A stretch of DNA of 64,000 nucleotides from a virus, in IMG/VR virus record IMGVR_UViG_3300042448_001704, positions 24,776 to 88,775 of that record; one strand, written 5' to 3'. The notes below the pieces were generated by a model. That model was not told the DNA's origin. It saw only the letters and a list, made by a program, of their open reading frames with translations, and did no database searches. The position numbers and the translations under genes were made by a program. Positions 46,983 through 61,913 of this stretch are shown in pieces (the first letter of the stretch is position 1; every line of letters starts with the position of its first letter).

Positions 46983-46985
46983 ATA

Positions 46986-47124
46986 CGGCTGTTGCCCCAT
47001 TGACCAAAAGGAGTAAAGTCAATGGGGCTGCCGGAGCGATAGACATACAATCGAGGTTGTGATGTCGCTCGGTTATGATCCAACAACATAACCAAAGCGA
47101 AAGTGGGGGTTTCCCCCCACTAAC
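46986..47124 (-). ncRNA. Candidate structured RNA (four hairpins, last with anti-Shine-Dalgarno loop)
   Basis: AGTGGGGG-GAAA-CCCCCACT; GGTTATG/CATAACC; GACAT/ATGTC; GCCCCATTGAC-TTTACTCCTTTTG-GTCAATGGGGC. Confidence 0.5.
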
Positions 47125-49364: not shown

Positions 49365-49553
49365 TTTTAATTCTCCTTTTAGAATTAGTAACTGCTGACG
49401 GAATGTCAACAGTAAAAGCAAGTTTAACAGATGGGTGTGTCAACAATAAGTTGGATTGTTTTGACGATGCCCATCTGTCAACCAATAAAATAAGTCTAGC
49501 ACATGGGTGTGTCAACGTCAAATTGACAAACCCACATACGAGAGCCGGACTTT

Positions 49554-51213: not shown

Positions 51214-51653
51214 GATGCGTAACGCAAATCAGAAGAAATATCTTCTCCGTCTCCACGAATGACTCCGCCTTCGCTGAGTGTGTCGTCAATGAATTGAGCA
51301 ACACTAAGACAGGATGCTGGAGATTTCTCTGTTCCGTCTTCGTTATCTCCGTAGAAGGAGAACTCTTCTTCACCGAGCACTTCAAGTAGGTGATTGCCCC
51401 ACTTGCCTCGATACCAACAGTCTGTTCCGAACATTCCATAAACCGGATTACCGATTGAGGTTTGATCTTGCTTTTCTAGTTCGGTGGTGTATGGACATCC
51501 GCCGCACGCTTGTGTGGCCTGGCAGTCAATTCGGGTCATTACTGAACCGTCTTCTTCCAGGATTGGTTGGTTTTCATTATTCAGACGAGGAACCATTACG
51601 GCTGTACCCCTCGTCTTACACGGATAGTTGTGTGGGATGTTATCTAAACCCAT
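51159..51653 (-). CDS. Hypothetical protein (MGLD start, Cys-containing)
   Basis: AAGGAGTAAA RBS and promoter cassette. Confidence 0.75.
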   Translation of the reverse strand: MGLDNIPHNYPCKTRGTAVMVPRLNNENQPILEEDGSVMTRIDCQATQACGGCPYTTELEKQDQTSIGNPVYGMFGTDCWYRGKWGNHLLEVLGEEEFSFYGDNEDGTEKSPASCLSVAQFIDDTLSEGGVIRGDGEDISSDLRYASWYLKWAAEYADGLTCWY

Positions 51654-51742
51654 TTTTACTCCTTTAGTAAATTGTATATTACAAGCACATTATACCAATA
51701 GGGTGTGTCAAGGTTTCCCCCAACACACCCAATAACTAACGT

Positions 51743-52300
51743 TTATAGGTATTTTTCTACAGACTCAACCTGGTGGTTGTCTAGCCAGTCATTTACTGCC
51801 TGGCCGATTGACTCCATCCATTCGTCGTCTTGTTCTTCAGTAGAGTCAGAACCTGGATGTTTGGCAAGTGAGTCAAAGTCGGTTTCCGCTTCGTAGACCA
51901 TCTCGCCGTTCTCAAACGCGTTTACGCCTGCGAACCCCATGCCGCCTTCTTCGTACGCAATCGAGAAGATTGCCTGCGGATAGAGCTTTGAGATCCGAGC
52001 GATACCCTGAAGTGGTGGACCCCAGGGAGACTGGAAACTATAAGACTTATCTGACAGATAACCGTCAGAGTCTGGCCATTTAGTTCCCCACAATTCATAA
52101 ACCGCGTTCATACCGCCATTTGCAAAAACGGATGTTGATGTTCCGTCTGCATGAGTCATTGTTTCGTAAAACTCTGGTGATGATGGAACCAACGTTTCAA
52201 GAACTGTTTTTTCCTGCTCCACGATTTCGGCCACTTTTCTGATGAACTCATCAGAGTCCGGACCTTCTACGACTAAATAATTACTGCACCAATTTGGCAT
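51743..52300 (-). CDS. DUF1281/YubB ferredoxin-like protein
   Basis: MPNWCSN, WGTKW, F.SPWGPP, YEEGG..FAG. Confidence 0.8.
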   Translation of the reverse strand: MPNWCSNYLVVEGPDSDEFIRKVAEIVEQEKTVLETLVPSSPEFYETMTHADGTSTSVFANGGMNAVYELWGTKWPDSDGYLSDKSYSFQSPWGPPLQGIARISKLYPQAIFSIAYEEGGMGFAGVNAFENGEMVYEAETDFDSLAKHPGSDSTEEQDDEWMESIGQAVNDWLDNHQVESVEKYL

Positions 52301-52335
52301 AGTGTTTCTCCTTTCAAGAAATAAGCCTGATAGGG

Positions 52336-52737
52336 CTAGGCGACTTTCGTCGCTTTCGCCTTTTCAGTTGTGGCTGCTACTGCAAGATCAGTAACTCGGA
52401 TTTGCTCGTATGGAGTAACCTTTGTAACTGCTTCTGCAACATCAGACTTGATGTCACCGACGGTAACGAGAGCCTTGAACTTCGCTCCGTCAATGACAGA
52501 CTTGGTTGCTTTCTCAAATACTTCTGGAGCAACGAGAGTCTCAAGAACTGCGACATCATATGATGGACGCTCGCCGTAGACGACTGCGACTTTCACATTA
52601 TTGAAAATCGCAAAGTCACTTCCTGATCGTGCAAGTGCTTCCTTGAGCATTGCTTCGGCTTGTTCTTTGGCCGCCTGGGCGATTTCAAGAGCCTCGCGTG
52701 CTTCAAGATATGTTTTGGTAATTGCTGTTGGTATCAT
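52336..52737 (-). CDS. Hypothetical protein (N-terminal coiled coil)
   Basis: AAAGGA RBS and promoter cassette. Confidence 0.7.
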   Translation of the reverse strand: MIPTAITKTYLEAREALEIAQAAKEQAEAMLKEALARSGSDFAIFNNVKVAVVYGERPSYDVAVLETLVAPEVFEKATKSVIDGAKFKALVTVGDIKSDVAEAVTKVTPYEQIRVTDLAVAATTEKAKATKVA

Positions 52738-52795
52738 TTTTCTTCCTTTTTGTTGTGAACTGATAATGTAAGTATAACGTGGGGGTGTATCAAGG

Positions 52796-53170
52796 TTATT
52801 CCTCGCCCTCGTCGTCGTCCTCATCTTCTTCTTCGTCTTCCCCGAATGGAGTTGCGCATTGGCTGATGAGACTGACAAATCCGGCGTTCGGATCGTTCTC
52901 GTTGTGCCAGACGGCCGAGATGAACCTAAGAGGGCAGGAGCCGTCCCACCAGTCCGAGAGGTGATCGAGCATCTCTACCGAGCCGCTCTCTACAATCCTA
53001 AAAGATGAGGAACGAAACCATGCTGCTTCTTTCTCATCCATTGCTAGATAGATTTTGTGGCAATCGTCAAATGCGACCAGAACTGCATCCTGGATGTATT
53101 CGTCAATAGCTACCCACCCATCATGGATGCTGTCGCTGTTGTGATCGGAGTATTGGAGTTGAGTCTTCAT
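52796..53170 (-). CDS. Hypothetical protein with acidic tail
   Basis: AFDDCHKIYL, SCPLRFI; promoter cassette. Confidence 0.7.
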   Translation of the reverse strand: MKTQLQYSDHNSDSIHDGWVAIDEYIQDAVLVAFDDCHKIYLAMDEKEAAWFRSSSFRIVESGSVEMLDHLSDWWDGSCPLRFISAVWHNENDPNAGFVSLISQCATPFGEDEEEDEDDDEGEE

Positions 53171-53256
53171 AATAATTTTTCCTTTGTGTGAAGTGATAAG
53201 CGAAGTATAACGTCGGGGTGTATCAAGGTTTCCCCTGACACACCCGACTCGGCCGA

Positions 53257-53577
53257 CTAGAGGTCGTCCCCACAAGAGGGACAACCGCCAACTGCGTAGA
53301 GTTCCTTGCAGTCGTAGCAACCATGTGGATGCTCGGCGTACCAGTCATCCTCGTCAAGATCCTCTGTCTCGGTGTCACAGGACACCCAGGACATTGTGAC
53401 CCTAAGAAGGTTGTCATAGTCACCAGAAGTGGCTTCCGTGTTATATGCGGTGATCTCGTCGTTGCTGACGCCGGCTTTTCGCATTGCGCGAGCTGCACGA
53501 GCGAGGATTGAGAAGGCATTGCCATCTTCACCTACGAGCGCAATCTGAACGTTGGGGTATCGGGTTGTAGTAATCAT
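53257..53577 (-). CDS. Conserved phage hypothetical protein with C-terminal Cys cluster
   Basis: LVGEDGNAFSIL...SGDYDNLL; CYDC...CPSC. Confidence 0.75.
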   Translation of the reverse strand: MITTTRYPNVQIALVGEDGNAFSILARAARAMRKAGVSNDEITAYNTEATSGDYDNLLRVTMSWVSCDTETEDLDEDDWYAEHPHGCYDCKELYAVGGCPSCGDDL

Positions 53578-53679
53578 TGTTCTCCTTTTAGTAAATGTTA
53601 CAAGGTTAGTATATCACAGGGGTGTGTCAAGGTCAAATGAGACTTGACTGTGATACACCCATAGTGTAAGATAGTAGAT

Positions 53680-53916
53680 ATGGAAACATTACTAGACAAA
53701 AGCATGAGCATGAGAGAAAGCATAGCTCTGCTCAAAAACGTGGAACAAAGGCCGCAAAGTCGGTTCCGTCTGGGATCACCCTGTCGTTTCATTAGACAAC
53801 TGGACATCCTGGTTCACGTGATCACGCCAGAACTAGTAGAAGATTTCTTCCCGCAACTCTGTGGATATCTCCGAAGCACATCCCCGCGATGGGGAAGATC
53901 CTGGAGAGATTGGTAG
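53680..53916 (+). CDS. Hypothetical protein
   Basis: Leaderless-type start 7 nt after the -10 of a promoter cassette. Confidence 0.45.
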   Translation: METLLDKSMSMRESIALLKNVEQRPQSRFRLGSPCRFIRQLDILVHVITPELVEDFFPQLCGYLRSTSPRWGRSWRDW

Positions 53917-54207
53917 CGGCTATCCGCCACCGTCGCGAATAGTAAAAAACCGGACTCGCCGGCTTGGCCCCGGATCAGCTCCCTCGGATCAACCCTGGCA
54001 GTCCCGCCGCAGGCGAACAAACGAACGTACGTTCGGGACTCCCGAAGGGCTATTGCTCGATCGGTTTGCTGCACCAATCACACGTGCGACCTGGCCGATA
54101 ATCCGGATCGGTATTTTTTAGCTCACGCGGATCGATCACCTGGTGACTTCCGTGATTATTGCAATAAAGATACCTTCCGTCGCGCCATCCAATAACTTTT
54201 TCTTCCA

Positions 54208-54429
54208 TTAGAAAATCTCCCCAGGATCGTGAGAATCAACACTTTTTAGTGAATCTGCCTGATCGGAGCCGGCGAGCTGTATGAACTCGCTAAAATCTTC
54301 GGTGCTCCAGTCAGAAATGTCGTACACCAAACAGTCACGATCAACCGGAAAAAACGCAGGGATCTCCGGTTCGGTGACTTCGTTATAGACATACATGCTG
54401 TAAGTACGGTAGTTGTAAATCAGTCTCAT
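54208..54429 (-). CDS. Hypothetical protein
   Basis: TAATG coupling with upstream gene. Confidence 0.55.
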   Translation of the reverse strand: MRLIYNYRTYSMYVYNEVTEPEIPAFFPVDRDCLVYDISDWSTEDFSEFIQLAGSDQADSLKSVDSHDPGEIF

Positions 54430-54875
54430 TACACATTCACGGTCTGAACATAGGAGATCGCACTATCAACGGCTTCGTAAATGTCAAATGTTTGACAATC
54501 GAGACAACCTGCGCGCCCAGGCTCAAATGAGGGATGAGCTGAATACAGATCAAAGTAGGGCTGCACGAGCCAATCAACTCTGTTTTCCAACAAAGTTGCA
54601 TCTTGTAGATCCAAGTCATTGTTGATTCCAACGGATTCCCATTCTTTACTGGTGGTAACGCGCCCCAACCAATTTGGTCGGGTGCTTGCTTTGTTGAGAA
54701 ATGATGCGTTGTCTTTATATACGTCAATGCGCATATCGCCGTCGCATGAAACCCATACGGTGCGAACACCATCAGATACGGTAACGAGTGGATTGATCGT
54801 GGACGGAATGAACCATTCTGGTCCAGCTCTGCCTGGGGTCACTTCTGTGTGCCAGGTGATTGTAAGTTCTGTCAT
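54429..54875 (-). CDS. Hypothetical protein
   Basis: AAAGGA RBS; CDGDMRI. Confidence 0.65.
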   Translation of the reverse strand: MTELTITWHTEVTPGRAGPEWFIPSTINPLVTVSDGVRTVWVSCDGDMRIDVYKDNASFLNKASTRPNWLGRVTTSKEWESVGINNDLDLQDATLLENRVDWLVQPYFDLYSAHPSFEPGRAGCLDCQTFDIYEAVDSAISYVQTVNV

Positions 54876-54907
54876 TTTATTCCTTTCATAGAATTACAGA
54901 TAAGCAA

Positions 54908-54938
54908 ATAGGGGAAGAGCCTAAACCCTTCCCCATAT
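54908..54938 (-). terminator. Intrinsic terminator-like hairpin
   Basis: GGGGAAG...CTTCCCC stem followed by T-rich run on minus strand. Confidence 0.55.
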
Positions 54939-54940
54939 TC

Positions 54941-55099
54941 TTAGCGTTCCCAACGGAAACTTTTACACGCCTCACGGCTTTCCTGCTTGCGCAGGTCACC
55001 GAAATTTTGCGCACGGCGGCGACAGCCGTCAGCGAAACCCTGTCTTTCAGAGTCATCCCAACGGTTGAGCTGTTTTTTGTGCTTTGCTTGCTTTGCCAT
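54941..55099 (-). CDS. 52 aa basic protein (not in ORF track)
   Basis: MAKQAKHKKQLNRWDDSERQ...FRWER*; full promoter and RBS cassette. Confidence 0.7.
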   Translation of the reverse strand: MAKQAKHKKQLNRWDDSERQGFADGCRRRAQNFGDLRKQESREACKSFRWER

Positions 55100-55177
55100 T
55101 TTTACTCCTTCAGTAAATCTTACAAGGTCAGTATATCAGGGGGGTGTGCCAGGGTTTCCCCTGGCAACGTTCCCCAG

Positions 55178-55627
55178 TTATTTTTTGAGTGCCTTCGGCC
55201 GGTCCTGCGGATTGAGCAGATCGGTGAAGTTCCCATCAGAGCAAAGATGCGTTGTCTGACGCATCAAGGCACTCCAAGTGGTTGCCGTTACATGGAACTG
55301 CTGGCTGCACTTCGTACAAGTTGTCTTGTAAAAAGTGATTGCCTGATCTTTGCGGATTGGTGTCTGACCTGCATCTGCCGATTGGTAGATGGTCATAGCC
55401 TTTTCGCATTGAGGGCAATAGACGAGCGTGGTTGCGTATTCGCGCTTATTCCATGTTGCAACTGTCTTTAGTGACAGTTTCACGGCTCCACACTTTGTGC
55501 ATGGATCGTGAGGGCGATTCTTTGTTTCACCCGAAATGTTGAATTGAAATAGTTCATTCAACAAGCCAAACGGAATGTCTTTTTTCTGAGCCTGGTTGAG
55601 GACGTGGTGGGTAGGGCGTAGTGACAT
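55178..55627 (-). CDS. Zn-ribbon protein
   Basis: CTKC, CPQC, CTKC; cassette upstream. Confidence 0.7.
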   Translation of the reverse strand: MSLRPTHHVLNQAQKKDIPFGLLNELFQFNISGETKNRPHDPCTKCGAVKLSLKTVATWNKREYATTLVYCPQCEKAMTIYQSADAGQTPIRKDQAITFYKTTCTKCSQQFHVTATTWSALMRQTTHLCSDGNFTDLLNPQDRPKALKK

Positions 55628-55708
55628 TTGGTTTACTCCTTTAGTAAATGTTACAAGTGTATTATATCAAGCGGGTGTGCCGGGGTTTCCCCCGACACTT
55701 CAATGAGA

Positions 55709-55939
55709 TTAGATATGGTTTAGCTGTACGACTTCTCCAAATCCAGGTCCGTTTCCTTCGGGATCCTGCATCAGGACGATTCCGTCTCCGTTGTCTAGAA
55801 CCAGTACGGTTGTCTCATCTTCGTCGCAGTACCAATCAAAGGCTTCTTTGATGTCCTGAGCCGTCAGATAGACGACCTTGACGATTTTGCGACCAGCGAG
55901 CTGCTCGTGTAGATAGTGGGTTTTTGTTGCTGTTGGCAT
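55709..55939 (-). CDS. Conserved phage hypothetical protein
   Basis: L.GRKI..V...QDPEGNGPG; cassette upstream. Confidence 0.75.
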   Translation of the reverse strand: MPTATKTHYLHEQLAGRKIVKVVYLTAQDIKEAFDWYCDEDETTVLVLDNGDGIVLMQDPEGNGPGFGEVVQLNHI

Positions 55940-56037
55940 TTTTACTCCTTTAGTAAATATTACAAGATTAGTATATCACGTGGGTGTGTCATAGTCAAGC
56001 CCCCCCCACCCGTGAGGGCAGGGGGTAGTGAGTTGTA

Positions 56038-56460
56038 TTAGCGAACTCTGTTTTCCCACATTTGCTCTACTGCTAGAGCCAATGAACCAGACGCGTTGCC
56101 GTAATCTTCCACGATTTCAACTCCATCAGGTCGGGTGATCTCCAGGATTGAGGCTTTACCCTCATCATTTATGACATAGACCATATGGACGCGTACACGA
56201 TCAGGGTGCTCGCTTGGGGGTACATCCCCAATTTCGTTGTCTGGGTTGAGTGGGGCTGCCCATCCAACCGTCTCAACCCCGACTGCAATAGCAGAGGGTG
56301 GGATGACTGCGCTGTCTAGAGCTTGATAGATATCCGCATTGAGTGAGATAGTTTTTATGCTTCCACCATCAAACATGGCAAAGACGCCGGCTTTGGATCG
56401 GTCTAAACCATCTAGGAAATCTAGTAATTCGCGTGCATGGATAATAGTTGGGGTATTCAT
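56038..56460 (-). CDS. Hypothetical protein
   Basis: GWAAP...PPSEHPDRVRV...GSLA. Confidence 0.7.
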   Translation of the reverse strand: MNTPTIIHARELLDFLDGLDRSKAGVFAMFDGGSIKTISLNADIYQALDSAVIPPSAIAVGVETVGWAAPLNPDNEIGDVPPSEHPDRVRVHMVYVINDEGKASILEITRPDGVEIVEDYGNASGSLALAVEQMWENRVR

Positions 56461-56555
56461 GTTATTCCTTTCAAGAATATAAGTATCGGTGATCCGATAT
56501 AACAAGCAGTATATAGGAAGGGTGTGTCGGGGTTTCCCCCGACGTTCCCAACTGA

Positions 56556-56975
56556 CTAATCCTGGATGCTGAAAGACTGGACAACCTTGCGCTGACGGTG
56601 AGTACCGCCCTCGATGGTTTCTGCCCACATTTCGTTATCTTCTCCACGCATGATCCAAGTGATTGAATCGGTAGATACGGAACCAATGGCATCCCATACT
56701 TCATCCCAACACATTCCGATCTTGTCGCCGCCCCAGTCATTTAGGACAACGTTGGAATCTTTGAGTTCGGTGAGGAACCCGTAGTCATCCATGATCGTTT
56801 TTACAACGACTGACAAATTAGCTTCTACTAATATGTATTCGTCAATGGTGTTGCACCATGAGATATGACCAATCTTTGACTCTGCTTTACGCAGACCCTC
56901 AATCAGTCGTGGCATGTCTTTGGCTGCGAGTGTGATCTCGCTTGACATTTGTTCGGTATCGGCACAGTAGCCCAT
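56556..56975 (-). CDS. Hypothetical protein
   Basis: MGY start, GEDNEMW; cassette upstream. Confidence 0.7.
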   Translation of the reverse strand: MGYCADTEQMSSEITLAAKDMPRLIEGLRKAESKIGHISWCNTIDEYILVEANLSVVVKTIMDDYGFLTELKDSNVVLNDWGGDKIGMCWDEVWDAIGSVSTDSITWIMRGEDNEMWAETIEGGTHRQRKVVQSFSIQD

Positions 56976-57335
56976 ATTGTTTTACTCCTTATAGTAAATG
57001 TTACAAGCGCAGTATATCAGAGGGGTGTGTCAAGGTCAAGCCAGGGTACAGCTGATCGAGGGGGTGTGTCAGGGTTTCCCAGGTGCGCGATCCAAAAAGT
57101 AGCTTTTTGTGACGTTTTCCCGGAAGCCGGGTATTTTTGCCGGCTATCCGCCACCGTGAACTGTTCTGAAACACATTTCCGATCCTGGGGAGTCCCGCTG
57201 GTGAGCGGCTGAAGCGCGCCGGAAATCACGTTGCCGCGCCGGGTCGGGACTGCCGGGCCGATCGGAAGCTGCCGATTTGACAAGACGTTATATTTCTGAT
57301 ACACTCAGGATCTATATTTTATCTAAGGAGTAAAA

Positions 57336-57797
57336 ATGCCGGAATTAGCAATTTTATCTGATGCCCAGGAACATGAGTTTGTTTCTTTTCTTCAGAACAA
57401 CAAGAGTAAGAGCTCTTTTTACGCGGACCTACTAAGCAAGTACAACAAGTTTGGTGGACTGACTCAAGGTCAGTGGGATGCCGTAGAAAAGTCAATCCCC
57501 CGTGAACAAGCGGCCGACCTTCGTGCCTTGCGATTAGCAAAGAGCGGAGCGGTGATCGTTGAAGGTATCCACGAGATTACGGGAACCGTACTATCCCTGA
57601 AGGCTCACGATAGTCGTGGACTGGTGTTCACGATCGAGACTGATGAGGAACTACGACTGTGGGGAACCGTACCCGCCGATATGCGGGAAGATATCAAGGT
57701 GGGCAGCAAAGTTACTTTTGTTGCGGAGATCCTAAGTTCTAAACCTGACCCAACTTTTGGGTTCTTCAAGAAACCCCGTGCAGGAATGATCCTGTAA
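57336..57797 (+). CDS. Hypothetical protein with OB-fold-like C-terminus
   Basis: F..DL......G.LT.GQ; ITGTV...WGTVP...VTF.A...FGFFKKP. Confidence 0.7.
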   Translation: MPELAILSDAQEHEFVSFLQNNKSKSSFYADLLSKYNKFGGLTQGQWDAVEKSIPREQAADLRALRLAKSGAVIVEGIHEITGTVLSLKAHDSRGLVFTIETDEELRLWGTVPADMREDIKVGSKVTFVAEILSSKPDPTFGFFKKPRAGMIL

Positions 57798-57816
57798 GGA
57801 CCGGCCACGATAAAGC

Positions 57817-57853
57817 AAAAAGCCCCCCACCCGTGAAGGTGAGGGGCTTTTTT
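57817..57853. terminator. Bidirectional intrinsic terminator
   Basis: AAAAGCCCC...GGGGCTTTTTT between convergent genes. Confidence 0.8.
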
Positions 57854-57858
57854 GTGGA

Positions 57859-58083
57859 TTAGGCGAACTGGGGAGCGCGCATTGTTAGATCAACGCTCAC
57901 AGTTCTAATCTGAACCTCATGAAAATACTTTCGGTAGGTCATTGCTTTTGACTGTGCCTGACGTTCTGCTAGAGCGCCCGTGAAGATTACCCATTCTGTC
58001 GGGTGGAGTGCGAAGTCCCCCTTGAAAATAGGATCTTTATGATCGAGCGGCAGGTGGGCGAGAACAATGTAACTATTCGTCAT
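57859..58083 (-). CDS. Hypothetical protein
   Basis: Coupled to upstream gene. Confidence 0.55.
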   Translation of the reverse strand: MTNSYIVLAHLPLDHKDPIFKGDFALHPTEWVIFTGALAERQAQSKAMTYRKYFHEVQIRTVSVDLTMRAPQFA

Positions 58084-58427
58084 TATTGCTCCCACGCCAT
58101 TTCTATCATCTCATCCCATTCGGTGATGAGTGCCGTGTCATTGGTTTCCATTGTGATGTCAAAACGAATGTCACCGTCGCAGGCGTACCATTCTGTCGGA
58201 TGAGTTGCTAACCATTCGGTTAGTTCATACTGTGACTGGTACGAGCGAACGATAGTCATTAGTTCGGCAAGGCATTGAGCTGAGGCGTATGCGTAATCTT
58301 CTTGATCACCGCTACCTGCATCCCAAGGGAACATTCCGGCGACACGAGCTGCTGCCAGCTCTACGATTGTCTGAAGATCAACTTTCTGAACGATTTGTTC
58401 TGCTAGTTCTTTTTGGCTCCGTGCCAT
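58083..58427 (-). CDS. Hypothetical protein
   Basis: Promoter cassette at 58471; AAAGGGG RBS. Confidence 0.65.
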   Translation of the reverse strand: MARSQKELAEQIVQKVDLQTIVELAAARVAGMFPWDAGSGDQEDYAYASAQCLAELMTIVRSYQSQYELTEWLATHPTEWYACDGDIRFDITMETNDTALITEWDEMIEMAWEQ

Positions 58428-58520
58428 TGTTGGTACCCCTTTCAGTTGGTATATAACAAGTGTATCATATGGGTGTGTCAGGGTCAACGTTATGTGCGCG
58501 GCCGGCCCCAGGACGCCCAA

Positions 58521-58559
58521 AAGCCCCTCAACCTGTCATGTCTGAGGGTTGAGGGGCTT
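58521..58559 (-). terminator. Terminator hairpin
   Basis: AAGCCCCTCAACC ... GGTTGAGGGGCTT. Confidence 0.7.
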
Positions 58560-58571
58560 AGGTAGTTTGGG

Positions 58572-58781
58572 CTAGTTAGACGAGTCTACGAGCCACTCTG
58601 AGTTGATGTCACGAGCGACACACTCGGTACCGATAAAGGAACCGAACATGAGGGTCTCACGACAGTCAAGAAGGGCTACGACATACCCAAGGTCTGCCAT
58701 GACCGATCGCTGATCGGTGAGCCTGATGAGCTTTGCACCTGAGTAGGGGTGACCTTTGGGGACTTGAAGTGTAATGGACAT
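58572..58781 (-). CDS. Hypothetical protein
   Basis: AAAGGAG RBS. Confidence 0.6.
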   Translation of the reverse strand: MSITLQVPKGHPYSGAKLIRLTDQRSVMADLGYVVALLDCRETLMFGSFIGTECVARDINSEWLVDSSN

Positions 58782-59034
58782 TGTTTCTCCTTTATTGAAA
58801 CGTCGCGACCAGTGCGGAAGCGATATAGGTACTTTATCAAAAGGGTGTATCAGGGTTTCCCCCGACACACCCCGTCTAGTTAGTGGAGCTGCCCCTTCGG
58901 ATCGGAAGGACATACAACTCCGTGGATGTATAAAAGCATTATAGCAAAAGGGTGTATCAAGGTTTCTAGGGGATCAACCCTGGCACACCCCCCTGATATA
59001 CTGTGCATATAAGATTTAGTGAAAGGAACTAAAC

Positions 59035-59235
59035 ATGGCAACATCAACAAAAAAGGGAGATCGAGTACGTCTCGTCTCAACAAGTGACAGCGGAACTCGC
59101 CTCAAGTCAGGCGACGAAGGCGTAGTCATGTCAGCGAGAATTGACCCTTGGGGTGACTTCACAATCAGCGTCAAGTGGGATAGTGGCTCAAGCCTCTCGC
59201 TCATCAGTGGCGAAGATTACTGGCAAGTAATCTAA
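59035..59235 (+). CDS. DUF4314-like SH3-fold protein
   Basis: GDRVRLV...GDEGVV...D...VKWDSGSSLSLI...D. Confidence 0.8.
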   Translation: MATSTKKGDRVRLVSTSDSGTRLKSGDEGVVMSARIDPWGDFTISVKWDSGSSLSLISGEDYWQVI

Positions 59236-59241
59236 AGACAC

Positions 59242-59276
59242 AAAAACCCTCACTCATCACGAGTGGGGGTTTTTTT
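59242..59276 (+). terminator. Intrinsic terminator
   Basis: AAAACCCTCACTC...GAGTGGGGGTTTTTTT. Confidence 0.8.
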
Positions 59277-59589
59277 ACGCGATTCGGGACTCCCGGGCCA
59301 GGACGTGAGACAAAAAGACAAAAGCTGTCTCGATGTCGCCGCTATACGCCACCGTCGTAAGTTCTTATTTTTTTCTGGTTTTCCCGGCTTTTCGGGACTT
59401 CGCCAGGCAGCGCGCTGCGCGCAGCTCCAGATCAGCCGCTCTGGGAGTCCCGACTTTCGGGCAGCTCAGCTGCAGCTTGATCCCCGATCCCAGGCAGCGC
59501 GATCCCAGGAAAGCCGTAGATCAGGAACTTTCAACATTGGCACACCCTTATGATAGAACATACTTGTAATATTTACTGAAGGAGTAAAC

Positions 59590-59796
59590 ATGGTAATAGC
59601 AAGTATAAGAACAGCAAAGGACACAGACAAGGTGATCACTAATCGCCAATTCTCTGATCTGAAAGCTGCGCAAGGATTCTGTGACTCAATAATCGGAGAC
59701 TACTCAGATAACCACGGAACTGTGGAGTTCATACTCTTGACGGATTATGAAACTGGATTATCGGAAGAATACAGCATTGAAGATGGGGGTAAATAA
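59590..59796 (+). CDS. Hypothetical protein
   Basis: Full cassette with AAGGAGTAAA. Confidence 0.7.
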   Translation: MVIASIRTAKDTDKVITNRQFSDLKAAQGFCDSIIGDYSDNHGTVEFILLTDYETGLSEEYSIEDGGK

Positions 59797-59797
59797 T

Positions 59798-60211
59798 ATG
59801 ACCGACATGCTCACGCTCAAAGGAACGATCACCAACTCATGCACTTGTGTCTCATACGATGAGGACAAGGGCGACTTTGCGGAAGCACCAGAGTGTTGGG
59901 GCGACTGTTGGGAATACTCATTAGAGGACTTCGCCAATGTCACCGAGTCTCTCCGTAACGACAACCCAACCGACTACTGGAAGGTTGAGAATCTTCGCCT
60001 ATGGAATGGTGAAGTCTCGGGCCACTTTGAGGCTAGGACTGTTGAGGATCTGTTGCGCGGAATGACTGTTCGCAGCGAGTGGTCAATGAGCTATGAGATC
60101 TTTGCTGATCGCATTGAGTACTCACTATCTCACCACGACTCACCTACGGGTAGCACCAGCGTTCTCCGTCCAGTAGAGGCAGAGGAATACGAAGAAAGAT
60201 ATAGGTGGTAA
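59798..60211 (+). CDS. Conserved phage hypothetical protein
   Basis: CTC...CWGDC; LWNG; SHHDSPTG. Confidence 0.7.
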   Translation: MTDMLTLKGTITNSCTCVSYDEDKGDFAEAPECWGDCWEYSLEDFANVTESLRNDNPTDYWKVENLRLWNGEVSGHFEARTVEDLLRGMTVRSEWSMSYEIFADRIEYSLSHHDSPTGSTSVLRPVEAEEYEERYRW

Positions 60212-60320
60212 AGGCTAACAGCCGGCCAGGGGCGTGGTTACTGATCACAACCCTGGCACACCCATTTGATAGAACATACATATTGTTTCAACCTGAAGCG
60301 AGAATCTTGAAAGGATTACC

Positions 60321-60491
60321 ATGACCGATCTACACGAAGAACTTTGCGAACTTTGCGAAGACAAAGTTGATTATTGCGAGTGCCGTCGCTGCGAACTCTG
60401 CGGAGAACTCACCTTGGGCGAAGACGCTGTTGTCAATGACATGTGCCTCAACTCTGGTGACGACGGTATCTGTGGCGGAGACTTCATTTAG
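60321..60491 (+). CDS. 56 aa Cys-rich acidic protein (not in ORF track)
   Basis: MTDLHEELCELCEDKVDYCECRRCELCG...; promoter box, RBS and terminator. Confidence 0.65.
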   Translation: MTDLHEELCELCEDKVDYCECRRCELCGELTLGEDAVVNDMCLNSGDDGICGGDFI

Positions 60492-60505
60492 TCGCCTCAA
60501 CACCT

Positions 60506-60535
60506 AGCCCCTGCCCTGATCGGTAGGGGCTTTTT
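60506..60535 (+). terminator. Intrinsic terminator
   Basis: AGCCCCTGCC...GGTAGGGGCTTTTT. Confidence 0.75.
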
Positions 60536-60632
60536 GTTGTCTGATCCCTGATCGCAAACGTTGGCACACCCATTTGATAGAACATACATATAGCCCTCAC
60601 CGCGGGGGCGACGATCTAAAGGAGATCCCATA

Positions 60633-60782
60633 ATGGAACAACACGAATACGAACACTCGCACCTGAACAACTGCCAGGCATGCGACGAGCATGCCGATCG
60701 CATGCAGCGCCGTCAAGATAGGCAGAACCGCCAGTGGGCAACCCAAGCCCGCCTAGGTGTTCCAATGAGGGGGTCACGATGA
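60633..60782 (+). CDS. 49 aa hypothetical protein (not in ORF track)
   Basis: AAAGGAG RBS; MEQHEYEHSHLNNCQAC... Confidence 0.55.
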   Translation: MEQHEYEHSHLNNCQACDEHADRMQRRQDRQNRQWATQARLGVPMRGSR

Positions 60783-60985
60783 TAGTGAAGGATCAGCGGA
60801 ACTGGTCAGTCTGGGTAGGTGGTGGTGAAGTCAATGACTACTACCTACCCTTAGACAAAGCCCTCAACTTGGCCTCAGACTTCTCTGGCGACGGTTACGA
60901 CGATGTACTTATCATGGAAGAAGTAAGCAAAAAATTCTACTTACCTAACCACCCAGTCTTTGGTCAAATAACGATACTGAAGTAG
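60779..60985 (+). CDS. Hypothetical protein
   Basis: WSVWVGGGEVNDYYL...GYDDV; ATGA overlap. Confidence 0.65.
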   Translation: MIVKDQRNWSVWVGGGEVNDYYLPLDKALNLASDFSGDGYDDVLIMEEVSKKFYLPNHPVFGQITILK

Positions 60986-60991
60986 GCACTC

Positions 60992-61022
60992 AAGCCCCTG
61001 CCCTAACGGGTGGGGGCTTTTT
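60992..61022 (+). terminator. Intrinsic terminator
   Basis: AAGCCCCTGCCC...GGGTGGGGCTTTTT. Confidence 0.8.
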
Positions 61023-61077
61023 GCTGTCTCTACGGCTTCCCAGGGCGGATCGTGGCCGGTCCTGAAACTACGACAAC

Positions 61078-61130
61078 AAAGAGAAAGAGTGAGGTGGCAG
61101 GCAGAAAGGAGTAAAGACCCGCCACCTCAC
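61078..61130 (-). ncRNA. Candidate small hairpin RNA with anti-Shine-Dalgarno loop
   Basis: TACAAT -10 at 61143-61138; GTGAGGTGGCGGG-TCTTTACTCCTTTCTG-CCTGCCACCTCAC then T-rich tail. Confidence 0.55.
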
Positions 61131-61410
61131 GGAAAGAATTGTACTTCATGTCATGAGCGCGAATCCATACCTTCACAATATTTGTTGCGCAGCTGGTGAT
61201 CGCGGAAAACAGCTGAAGTTTGGAAGTCCCGACGTCGGCCGAGCCGCAGCTGGAAGCCGGGAAAAAGACGTTTTTTATCCTGGAAGCGGCACGTTTCTGG
61301 CCGCACGCGCTGCGAAAATAAAAAGCGGGACTACTGATCCGAAGCTGGGCGCGCCTGATCCCAGACAGCAAAAAACCCGCCCCATCGCTGGAGCGGGCCT
61401 TTTAGTTTCT

Positions 61411-61632
61411 TTACAGAACTACGACGCTGATTACATCGCTAAATGTGAGGGCCACATCGTCTTGGTGCGGAGCTTCAAGATCCGCTTGTGTGATGGTGAA
61501 CTCTTGAGTGGCGAGGTTGAGATCCTCAATGCACCACCCGTCGTAGTTCCCTTGAGTTGTCTCAAGCTCATGAAACAGACGTTTTTCATCCTGGCAGCGC
61601 CAGAGCGTTTCCGCAATTTCTATTGTTTTCAT
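61411..61632 (-). CDS. Hypothetical protein
   Basis: Full cassette; terminator at about 61370-61403. Confidence 0.7.
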   Translation of the reverse strand: MKTIEIAETLWRCQDEKRLFHELETTQGNYDGWCIEDLNLATQEFTITQADLEAPHQDDVALTFSDVISVVVL

Positions 61633-61778
61633 TTTACTCCTTCAGTAAATACTATATGCATAGTGTATCAGGGGGGTGTGTCAATGTCAAATCCGGTCGC
61701 CGGAACCCCGATACACCCCTTTGTTATACTTGTTCTTATAGCCCTCACGGTGGGGGTGATAGTTCAGAAGGAGAACAA

Positions 61779-61913
61779 ATGAGCTACATTCCAGCTCCAG
61801 CAAATCACACGCTTGAAGTTTGCACAGTGTGCCAGCACTACTACGGCCGCCCAAAAAGCGATCAAAAACGTGTTTGCCCAGTATGCACAAAAAACCGGAA
61901 AAGAAAAGCTTGA
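61779..61913 (+). CDS. 44 aa Zn-ribbon protein
   Basis: CTVC...CPVC; AAGGAG RBS. Confidence 0.6.
   Translation: MSYIPAPANHTLEVCTVCQHYYGRPKSDQKRVCPVCTKNRKRKA

What the first reader, a model, noticed from the sequence alone, without database searches (positions are those of the whole stretch)
61078..61143. Stand-alone hairpin sRNA whose loop is antisense to the phage early-gene RBS
Seen: on the minus strand, TACAAT is followed 7 nt later by a 13-bp stem, a loop UCUUUACUCCUUUCUG and a U-rich tail. The one stem mismatch is a G-U pair only on the minus strand. UUUACUCCUU is the exact complement of AAGGAGUAAA, the RBS of at least eight cassette genes here (starts 51653, 55099, 55627, 55939, 56975, 57336, 59590, 61632). 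Inference: a trans-acting anti-SD sRNA of about 50 nt that shuts off early genes together, or blocks host mRNAs with strong SD sequences while leaderless phage mRNAs escape.
Basis: partly seen in the sequence, partly recalled or inferred. Interest (0 to 1): 0.8.

Follow-up and report, generated by a model that had tools for sequence, protein, structure and literature searches.

The report
Phage hairpin RNA mirroring early ribosome sites
This uncultured lake phage carries a conserved RNA hairpin whose open loop is the exact complement of the ribosome-binding tag on eight of its early genes; it belongs to a family of such hairpins in related phages and probably turns down early-gene translation, but no transcript or effect has been shown.

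Summary
There is a 13-bp GC-rich stem (61089-61101 / 61118-61130) and a 16-nt loop. On the minus strand sit TACAAT 7 nt upstream, a U-rich tail, and one stem position that is G.U on the minus strand only. The loop complements AAGGAGUAAA, the RBS of eight early cassettes.

It is not an isolated oddity:
- The phage has at least three hairpins with unrelated stems and the same loop core.
- Two strain variants carry pair-preserving stem changes with unchanged loops.
- In a 94%-identical variant the hairpin sits in a conserved block (3 changes in 89 nt) between flanks diverging 17-26%.
- In distant relatives, homologues of the second hairpin lie just behind a two-gene ATPase operon, on the gene's strand. 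Their stems all differ, their loops are 85% pyrimidine, and each loop covaries with the RBS of the operon's first gene.

The anti-SD sense and RBS pairing are therefore well supported for the family, and by extension for this copy. Still unproven: that this copy is a stand-alone, trans-acting sRNA rather than the distal tail of read-through transcripts, and that it shuts off early genes. The host-shutoff / leaderless-escape idea has no support.

The scan has met this kind of element before in other lake phages. I found no Rfam family or paper describing it in phages.

The parts
61089..61130 (-). Hairpin 1: 13-bp stem (5' arm 61130-61118, 3' arm 61101-61089) and 16-nt loop UCUUUACUCCUUUCUG (61117-61102)
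   Evidence: In variant L215 the loop is 16/16 identical and the only stem change is C61120T, which is G.U to A-U on the minus strand.
61138..61143 (-). TACAAT, a -10-like hexamer 7 nt before the stem. The -35 is weak: TGGATT here and TTGATC in L215, 18-nt spacer.
   Evidence: conserved in L215. Not listed by the sigma-70 scan. Lacks the phage's GACACACCC promoter motif.
61072..61088 (-). U-rich tail after the stem (UCUUUCUCUUUGUUGU)
   Evidence: One change in L215, at 61080.
61060..61148 (-). Conserved block holding the -10 box, hairpin and tail
   Evidence: 3 differences in 89 nt against 8/31 (61029-61059) and 12/72 (61149-61220) in the 94%-identical variant L215.
61368..61400 (-). Canonical intrinsic terminator (8-bp stem, U6) of the 73-aa cassette gene 61411..61632. 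It lies between that gene and hairpin 1.
   Evidence: Read.
61633..61642 (-). RBS AAGGAGTAAA of the cassette immediately upstream on the same strand (start 61632); 10 nt complementary to the loop
55941..55950 (-). RBS of the cassette starting at 55939. With 55632-55641 and 51655-51664 it offers 11 nt (AAAGGAGTAAA) of complementarity.
55632..55641 (-). RBS of the cassette starting at 55627 (11 nt complementary)
51655..51664 (-). RBS of the cassette starting at 51653 (11 nt complementary)
55101..55110 (-). RBS of the cassette starting at 55099 (10 nt)
56981..56990 (-). RBS of the cassette starting at 56975 (10 nt)
57325..57334 (+). RBS of the cassette starting at 57336 (10 nt)
59579..59588 (+). 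RBS of the cassette starting at 59590 (10 nt)
46994..47028 (-). Hairpin 2, a paralogue: perfect 11-bp stem unrelated in sequence, loop UUUACUCCUUUUG. It lies 100 nt behind the 506-aa gene of the AAA_5 ATPase operon.
   Evidence: Closing pair changes C-G to T-A in variant L164. Homologues in relatives.
49373..49380 (-). AAAAGGAG in the RBS of the AAA_5 ATPase gene (ATG 49364); pairs with the hairpin 2 loop (8 Watson-Crick pairs plus one U.G)

Best explanation
Hairpin 1 is a selectively maintained RNA hairpin read on the minus strand. It is one member of a family of phage anti-RBS hairpins: variable GC-rich stems that present a pyrimidine-rich loop with an anti-Shine-Dalgarno core near the loop's 3' side. 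The loop base-pairs with the extended Shine-Dalgarno region of phage mRNAs and occludes ribosome binding, probably also exposing the mRNA to decay. This copy's loop matches 10-11 nt of the private tag (A)AAGGAGUAAA carried by eight early cassettes, including the cassette directly upstream on the same strand. The RNA could be made in two ways, which I cannot tell apart. It may be a ~55-60-nt RNA started at the TACAAT box and ended by its own stem and U-rich tail, acting in trans. Or it may be the distal tail of transcripts that read through the cassette's terminator, acting in cis or in trans as in icaR. Shown: the anatomy, conservation against diverged flanks, pair-preserving stem changes, family membership, and loop-RBS covariation in the homologous family. 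Inferred: transcription, strand, pairing in vivo, and a repressive effect.
For: (1) The fold is far better than shuffles, and better on the minus strand.
(2) The loop motif is strongly non-random. AAGGAGTAAA occurs 10 times against 0.11 expected, and 2 of those 10 copies sit in loops of the window's ~20 strongest hairpins.
(3) A third copy lies in L040, the contig that continues this record. There the anti-SD sense is on the strand of all flanking genes, in a 5' leader that is kept in relatives.
(4) Strain variants preserve pairing. In L215 the loop is 16/16 identical and the stem change is G.U to A-U on the minus strand only. The hairpin has 1 difference in 42 nt against about 14% in the flanks (binomial p about 0.015), and the block 61060-61148 has 3 in 89. 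In L164 the closing pair of hairpin 2 changes on both sides.
(5) Of the 50 non-redundant loci that encode relatives of the 506-aa protein (33-50% identity), about 20 have such hairpins on the gene's strand just behind its stop. They are 21 of all 38 such hairpins on that strand, in under 3% of the sequence.
(6) Across 19 family hairpins, 188 of 190 inner stem pairs are canonical in the anti-SD sense against 180 on the other strand. Each stem position shows 4-6 pair types, and loops are 85% pyrimidine.
(7) Loops covary with the RBS of the operon's first gene. The mean longest match is 8.7 nt for cognate pairs against 5.6 for non-cognate ones, duplex energy is -13.9 against -8.5 kcal/mol, and 0 of 100,000 permutations reach the observed value. 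Examples are AAGGAGAAAGA against AAGGAGUAAG in sister phages L327 and L328, and the atypical AAAGGCAG in L326.
(8) Loop-to-RBS duplexes with the eight cassettes are -12.5 to -13.8 kcal/mol.
(9) The mechanism has precedent: the icaR 3'-UTR anti-SD motif 260 nt behind the stop codon (PMC3868564), and long-range aSD-RBS pairing in B. subtilis (PMC12697547).
Against: There are no strand-specific expression data. The only RNA-labelled run is held as contigs that cover nearly the whole stretch laid, so it says nothing about strand or ends. Hairpin 1 lies behind strong terminators on both strands, so it needs read-through or its own promoter. That promoter is weak: the -35 is poor, there is no TG extension, and it is not the phage's promoter type. 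Loop-RBS covariation was shown for the hairpin 2 family, not for hairpin 1, for which only one informative variant exists. The permutation test does not correct for relatedness. The loop binds some non-cassette SD sites almost as well (-12.3 kcal/mol at the gene starting 52300). No RBS in the 60% of the genome held matches the full 16-nt loop, so the true cognate target may be missing.
Confidence: 0.55

Rival explanations
1. It is simply a Rho-independent terminator or transcriptional insulator for minus-strand read-through, protecting the convergent plus-strand genes. The loop's likeness to the RBS would then be inherited by duplication from an RBS-bearing sequence or from hairpin 2, with no function of its own.
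For: A GC-rich 13-bp stem followed by a U-rich tail on the minus strand. It lies in a gap between convergent units. The terminator scan lists a partial site at 61133-61118.
Against: A 16-nt loop is unusual for an intrinsic terminator, and a terminator does not need a conserved loop. Yet the loop is identical in a variant whose flanks differ by 17-26%. The same loop core recurs on unrelated stems that have no U-tract: hairpins 2 and 3 and most relatives. The phage's ordinary terminators have short, different loops. Terminator function and loop function are not mutually exclusive.
Confidence: 0.15
2. It is a non-functional relic: a decaying copy of a hairpin 2- or hairpin 3-type element, or of a former leader, stranded in a non-coding island.
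For: It sits in a non-coding island with no gene downstream on the minus strand. ATCCGCC lies 42 nt downstream on the minus strand and recalls the TATCCGCC box that follows hairpin 3 and its homologues. A repeat of part of the neighbouring gene lies in the island (family D17).
Against: The hairpin is conserved against fast-diverging flanks, and its one stem change preserves pairing. The stem is perfect apart from one wobble.
Confidence: 0.1
3. It is a DNA-level element of the non-coding islands, for example a protein-binding or cruciform site related to the polar 16-mer that marks the other islands, and not an RNA.
For: The 3' arm on the plus strand (CCGCCACC, then TCA) resembles the core of the same-strand motif CCGCCACCGTCA found in seven other islands, and it aligns at that motif's position. 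This is the only island without an intact copy (scan note e1-6054182).
Against: Variable arms with an asymmetric conserved centre do not fit a dimeric DNA-binding site. The G.U-type variation and the eight G.U pairs in the family are meaningful only in RNA of one sense. Loop-RBS covariation in the family is an RNA-RNA signature.
Confidence: 0.07
4. The plus-strand RNA is the active one. The hairpin would then display a very strong SD (AGAAAGGAG) in its loop as a decoy or sponge for 30S subunits, or for a factor that binds the cassette RBS, or as an mRNA stabiliser.
For: The plus-strand loop carries a 9-nt complement to a typical 16S 3' tail (established knowledge) and the exact cassette tag. 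For hairpin 2 a neighbouring small hairpin tolerates a strain change slightly better on the plus strand, U.G to U-A.
Against: The plus strand has an A.C mismatch where the minus strand has G.U. Hairpin 1 lies behind a strong plus-strand terminator at 60992-61019. Hairpin 3 and all hairpin 2 homologues have the anti-SD sense on the gene's strand. The plus-strand upstream flank is poorly conserved.
Confidence: 0.06
5. The loop mimics the 16S rRNA 3' tail and acts as a decoy for a protein or nuclease that targets that tail (a MazF-like or colicin-like toxin, or bS21/S1) rather than pairing with mRNA.
For: CUCCUUUCU in the loop matches the 3' tail of many bacterial 16S rRNAs (established knowledge). 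Toxins that remove the anti-SD exist: the title and abstract of PMC12274833 were listed, but I did not read the paper.
Against: Loops in relatives follow their own phage's RBS variants, such as AAAGGCAG or GGAGGAC, rather than one fixed 16S sequence. The UUUA extension here matches the phage tag, not the 16S tail.
Confidence: 0.04

Closest known systems
icaR mRNA 5'-3' UTR interaction of Staphylococcus aureus (PMC3868564)
   Same: An anti-SD motif lies far behind the stop codon (260 nt in icaR; 280 nt here behind the gene starting at 61632, 100 nt for hairpin 2). It pairs with the SD of the message, blocks ribosome loading and promotes decay, and may act in cis or in trans.
   Different: Here the motif is displayed in the loop of a long GC-rich hairpin. 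It occurs in several copies per phage genome and matches a tag shared by eight genes. A canonical terminator stands between the gene and the hairpin. No RNase III role or any effect has been tested.
Cuckoo / CcsR (alpha-r14, RSs0680) sRNAs of Alphaproteobacteria (PMC4615179, PMC8034643)
   Same: Hairpins whose stems vary freely by compensatory change while every loop keeps one aSD-like motif. [quoted passage not shown] The proposed action is pairing with ribosome-binding sites.
   Different: Cuckoo RNAs have 2-4 adjacent hairpins with the fixed motif CCUCCUCCC and are chromosomal genes of Alphaproteobacteria. Here there are single hairpins at separate loci of a phage. The loop is U-rich (UUUACUCCUUU) and follows the phage's own RBS variant. 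There is no Rfam match.
C-rich-loop sRNAs that target SD regions in Gram-positives (RNAIII, RsaE; mentioned in PMC4615179 and PMC6158497)
   Same: Exposed pyrimidine loops of stable hairpins start the pairing with G-rich SD regions of several mRNAs.
   Different: Those are host regulators with UCCC motifs and several domains. This is a phage element with 10-11 nt of exact complementarity to a private tag.
Anti-RBS hairpins behind early ATPase operons in other uncultured lake phages
   Same: Same architecture and same logic: a loop complementary to a private RBS tag, with tag and loop changing together. My hairpin 2 family, found independently here, is of this kind.
   Different: Hairpin 1 is not behind the ATPase operon. 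It stands alone in a non-coding island behind a small cassette and its terminator, with a -10-like box and a U-rich tail of its own.
Lambda sib retroregulation and the P1/P7 c4 antisense RNA (from my own knowledge, not checked here)
   Same: Phage RNA elements that act from the 3' side of a message or through loops paired to an RBS region. sib works only on read-through transcripts.
   Different: sib is an RNase III site without anti-SD pairing. c4 is processed from a leader and targets one operon.

Membership tests
Phage anti-RBS hairpin family (defined here from hairpins 2 and 3 and 14 homologues) | Stem of 10 bp or more, GC-rich, free to vary in sequence | tested here: met
   13-bp stem; inner 10 pairs all canonical on the minus strand.
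Phage anti-RBS hairpin family (defined here from hairpins 2 and 3 and 14 homologues) | Loop of 8-20 nt, pyrimidine-rich, with an aSD core (CUCC, CCUC or CCCU followed by U's) near its 3' side | tested here: met
   The 16-nt loop is 13/16 pyrimidine. CUCCUUU ends 3 nt before the 3' arm, within the family's range.
Phage anti-RBS hairpin family (defined here from hairpins 2 and 3 and 14 homologues) | Loop complementary, beyond the generic SD, to an RBS of the same phage | tested here: met
   10-11 nt of exact complementarity to eight cassette RBS, including the non-SD extension UAAA.
Phage anti-RBS hairpin family (defined here from hairpins 2 and 3 and 14 homologues) | Loop and cognate RBS change together between related phages | tested here: inconclusive
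   Met for the hairpin 2 family. For hairpin 1 the only variant (L215) has both loop and RBS unchanged.
Phage anti-RBS hairpin family (defined here from hairpins 2 and 3 and 14 homologues) | Lies downstream of a gene or operon on the same strand as the anti-SD sense | tested here: met
   It lies 280 nt behind the stop of the minus-strand gene 61411..61632, but a canonical terminator intervenes.
Cuckoo / alpha-r14 sRNAs | 2-4 adjacent hairpins, each with the loop motif CCUCCUCCC | tested here: not met
   Single hairpin; loop UCUUUACUCCUUUCUG. No Rfam match at E up to 1.
icaR-type 5'-3' UTR interaction | Anti-SD motif complementary to the SD of the same gene | tested here: met
   10 nt complementary to the RBS at 61633-61642.
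icaR-type 5'-3' UTR interaction | Motif and SD lie on one transcript (a long 3' UTR) | not testable with these tools
   A strong terminator at 61400-61368 lies between them. Only assembled contigs of one RNA-labelled run were available.
Canonical intrinsic terminator | GC-rich stem, short loop (about 3-8 nt), run of U directly after the stem | tested here: inconclusive
   The stem fits. The 16-nt loop does not. The tail is U-rich but interrupted, with 8 U in the first 11 nt. The scan lists only a partial inner site.
Stand-alone sRNA gene | Own promoter and own terminator | tested here: inconclusive
   TACAAT matches the -10 consensus at 5 of 6 positions, lies 7 nt upstream and is conserved in L215. 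The -35 matches at 3-4 of 6 with an 18-nt spacer. It is not found by the consensus scan.

The most novel reading that the evidence does not exclude
The phage places anti-RBS hairpins just behind the terminators of early units: hairpin 1 behind the cassette starting at 61632, hairpin 2 behind the ATPase operon. Early transcripts that stop at the terminator would be translated freely. Once read-through or antitermination sets in, the same messages acquire a tail that folds back on their private RBS tag, and on those of the seven sister cassettes. That would be a retroregulatory timer that switches off a whole class of early genes by RNA alone.
Probability: 0.15. Interest if true: 0.85.

Novelty: new variant of a known kind. 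Interest (0 to 1): 0.62.

Why it matters
Shut-off of early genes in large uncultured phages is mostly unexplained. Here there is a private ribosome-binding tag on one class of genes and hairpin loops that mirror it, with both sides changing together in relatives. That would be a purely RNA-based way to control a gene class after transcription. It would extend the anti-SD logic known from a few bacterial mRNAs and sRNAs (icaR, Cuckoo/CcsR, RsaE) to phages, and it gives a directly testable pair of sequences. It also warns annotators that large-loop "terminators" in phage genomes can carry information in the loop.

Tried and rejected
- Rfam gave no family for any of the hairpins, here or in ten related loci.
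- The INPHARED phage collection had no match, near or distant.
- An exact loop search in IMG/VR returned 12 hits, all ordinary RBS without a stem.
- A search with the cassette leader motif in IMG/VR returned only single chance hits.
- Relatives of the 73-aa neighbour: none.
- Relatives of the 83-aa neighbour were many but distant and lacked the hairpin. Only L215 was informative.
- Helicase relatives L041-L043 were too distant and have no such hairpin.
- Coding readings of the island are rejected. The 51-aa ORF gains a stop in L215, and the 113-aa ORF through the hairpin shows radical replacements.
- A plus-strand RBS reading is rejected because no start codon follows.
- Laying sequencing runs gave only contigs. 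An RNA-labelled run covers almost the whole stretch laid with a 2-3% diverged strain, and shows no strand or ends.
- MAFFT could not align the hairpins by structure, so I built no covariance model and counted stems with my own script instead.
- RNAcofold cannot represent loop-to-strand kissing and paired the tail instead.
- Cis pairing of the hairpin 3 loop with its own downstream SD is weak and does not covary across leaders (read).
- The scans of bacterial genomes for the Rpf-like protein and for the hairpin came back empty, so there is no host clue.

Full report
WHAT IS THERE. The window is the last 64 kb of an 88.8-kb IMG/VR record of an uncultured phage, about 60% complete. Its DNA is held by 23 lake-water metagenome runs.

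The hairpin is exactly as described. On the minus strand, TACAAT (61143-61138) is followed by 7 nt, then a 13-bp stem (61130-61118 / 61101-61089). The loop is UCUUUACUCCUUUCUG and the tail is UCUUUCUCUUUGUUGU. The one non-Watson-Crick stem position is G.U on the minus strand and A.C on the plus strand. The minus strand folds at -26.9 kcal/mol (z = -8.0) and the plus strand at -22.5 (z = -3.8).

AAGGAGTAAA occurs 10 times against 0.11 expected. Eight copies are the RBS of small early cassettes. These cassettes share a promoter and leader consensus, TTGAC..GACACACCC..GATATACT..TTTACTnAAGGAGTAAA(n)ATG. The other two copies are hairpin loops. No start codon follows the plus-strand copy in this loop.

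CONTEXT. The hairpin lies in a ~400-nt gene-free gap between convergent units. The plus-strand gene 60734..60985 ends with a strong terminator at 60992-61019. The minus-strand 73-aa cassette 61411..61632 ends with a canonical terminator at 61400-61368 (read). The hairpin is therefore behind a terminator on either strand. ORFs crossing the gap are not genes. In the variant L215 the 51-aa ORF gains a stop, and the 113-aa ORF shows radical replacements.

PARALOGUES. A scan for strong hairpins found a second one at 46994-47028. It has a perfect 11-bp stem of unrelated sequence and the plus-strand loop CAAAAGGAGTAAA. A third lies in L040, the 6-kb contig that overlaps and continues the record. Its stem is again different, and its loop CUACUCCUUUC is on the plus strand. 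That is the strand of all flanking genes: the helicase, tRNA-Met, and an Rpf-type transglycosylase (PF06737). This third hairpin sits 27 nt before that gene's start. The three loops share AAAGGAGTA / UACUCCUUU.

STRAIN VARIANTS. L215 is 94% identical over 60248-61692. Its loop is unchanged (16/16). The only stem change, C61120T, turns G.U into A-U on the minus strand (A.C into A-T on the plus strand). Differences are 8 in 31 nt on one flank (61029-61059) and 12 in 72 on the other (61149-61220), but 3 in 89 over 61060-61148. That block holds TACAAT, the hairpin and the tail. For the hairpin alone, 1 change in 42 against about 14% outside gives a binomial p of about 0.015. In L164 (97.4% identical) the closing pair of hairpin 2 changes on both sides, C-G to T-A, with the loop untouched.

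THE FAMILY IN RELATIVES. The 506-aa protein upstream of hairpin 2 has a MIDAS-like DGSGS motif but no Pfam hit, and it follows an AAA_5 ATPase gene. It has relatives at 33-50% identity in 61 IMG/VR loci.

Of the 50 non-redundant loci, about 20 have an 11-17-bp GC-rich hairpin with an 8-20-nt pyrimidine loop on the gene's strand, within about 150 nt behind its stop. These are 21 of the 38 such hairpins found anywhere on that strand, in under 3% of the sequence. Most have no U-tract.

Over 19 family hairpins, 188 of 190 inner stem pairs are canonical in the anti-SD sense against 180 on the other strand. Every stem position shows 4-6 pair types. Loops are 85% C+U, and the aSD core sits near the loop's 3' side. 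The RNA sense of the family is therefore the anti-SD sense, which is the minus strand for hairpins 1 and 2.

LOOP-RBS COVARIATION. In each relative the loop is complementary to the RBS of the ATPase gene, the first gene of the same operon, and it follows that RBS's peculiarities:
- L327: AAGGAGAAAGA pairs with UCUUUCUCCUU.
- L328: AAGGAGUAAG pairs with CUUACUCCUU.
- L326: AAAGGCAG pairs with CUGCCUUU.
- L302: AAGGAGGC pairs with GCCUCCUU.
- L318: AGGAGGAC pairs with GUCCUCCU.
- L307: CAGAAAGGG pairs with CCCUUUCUG.

Cognate pairs match over 8.7 nt on average against 5.6 for non-cognate pairs. Duplex energy is -13.9 against -8.5 kcal/mol. No permutation in 100,000 reaches the observed value. 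Relatedness is not corrected for, but sister pairs such as L327 and L328 show paired changes. In this phage, hairpin 2 pairs with the ATPase RBS over 8 Watson-Crick pairs plus one U.G. It matches the cassette tag even better, at 11 nt.

WHAT THIS MEANS FOR HAIRPIN 1. It has all the structural marks of the family. Its loop matches 11 nt at the cassettes starting at 55939, 55627 and 51653. It matches 10 nt at those starting at 57336, 59590, 61632, 56975 and 55099. Loop duplexes are -12.5 to -13.8 kcal/mol.

The most likely action is occlusion of these ribosome-binding sites. This is the mechanism shown experimentally for the icaR 3' UTR (PMC3868564) and for aSD-like sequences hundreds of nucleotides from the RBS in B. 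subtilis (PMC12697547).

Two routes of synthesis remain open. One is a short RNA from the conserved TACAAT box, ended by its own stem and tail. The other is read-through of the terminator of the cassette starting at 61632. The promoter evidence is weak. The -35 matches at only 3-4 of 6 positions, the consensus scan does not list it, the phage's own promoter motif is absent, and hairpins 2 and 3 have no equivalent box.

ALTERNATIVES. A plain terminator explains the stem and tail, but not the conserved loop shared with non-terminator paralogues. A plus-strand SD decoy conflicts with the wobble position, the family's orientation and the plus-strand terminator. A DNA element related to the islands' polar motif is suggested by CCGCCACC in the 3' arm, but it cannot explain the RNA-type covariation. 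A 16S-tail decoy conflicts with loops that track phage-specific RBS variants. A relic conflicts with the conservation.

COMPARISON WITH WHAT IS KNOWN. No Rfam family matches. The nearest known kinds are icaR-type 5'-3' UTR pairing and the Cuckoo/CcsR sRNAs, which have variable stems and a fixed aSD-like loop and are processed from a 3' UTR (PMC4615179 and PMC8034643). Hairpin 1 is a member of neither. Three literature searches found no description of such elements in phages. Earlier notes of this scan report the same kind of element behind early ATPase genes in other lake phages. I reached the hairpin 2 result independently, before reading them.

LIMITS. There are no strand-specific expression data. 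There is only one informative variant of hairpin 1. The host is unknown.

Noticed in passing
window 46983-47124: The whole 142-nt gap between the convergent 92-aa gene and the 506-aa gene folds into four or five hairpins, equally well on both strands (-63.3 kcal/mol). All four differences in strain variant L164 are structure-neutral: two are compensatory, one turns a wobble or mismatch into a Watson-Crick pair, and one lies in a loop.
   Followed up: partly
window 61221-61314: A 94-nt block of the non-coding island is 100% identical in the 94%-identical variant L215, which is better conserved than the neighbouring coding gene. It holds palindromes (CCGACGTCGG, CAGCTG) and a 31-nt repeat of part of the gene 61411..61632 (61261-61291 against 61572-61602, 87%). 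Its function is unknown.
   Followed up: partly
window 61119-61129; compare 44724, 44938, 46120, 53921, 57145, 59343, 62725: The plus-strand 3' arm of hairpin 1 (CCGCCACC, then TCA) resembles the core of the same-strand motif (..TATCCGCCACCGTC..) that marks the other non-coding islands. It aligns at that motif's place, so the hairpin may have arisen by inverted duplication of that motif.
   Followed up: partly
window 51650-61660 (cassette leaders): The shared cassette leader is itself a small palindrome, TTTACT-N5-AGTAAA, with part of the SD in its 5-nt loop. Each early mRNA can therefore fold a weak hairpin over its own RBS spacer.
   Followed up: no
window 59531-60248, 60751-61001, 61692-61905: Contigs of other lake runs join across these points. 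Whole cassettes are thus present or absent between strains, apparently by recombination between the repeated promoters and terminators.
   Followed up: no
L040:1720-1957 and loci L165-L210: The leader of the Rpf-type transglycosylase gene is conserved across relatives at 50-100% protein identity: a hairpin of variable sequence, with G.U pairs valid only on the gene's strand, then a TATCCGCC box, the SD and the start. Loops range from aSD-like (CUACUCCUUUC, CUACCUUCC) to unrelated (GCUUGUUAUCU).
   Followed up: partly
L040:1557-1632 and 1645-1719: tRNA-Met (CAT) lies directly behind the helicase gene, preceded by a weak second tRNA-like match (29.1 bits, at Rfam's threshold). The distant relative L041 also has a tRNA behind its helicase gene.
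   Followed up: no
loci L304, L306, L310, L327, L335 and others, downstream of the 506-aa gene homologues: Many relatives carry a recurring CTACTAA / ACTAGAAA word just before the SD of the next gene and of the ATPase gene. It may be part of a promoter or of a start-associated sequence.
   Followed up: no
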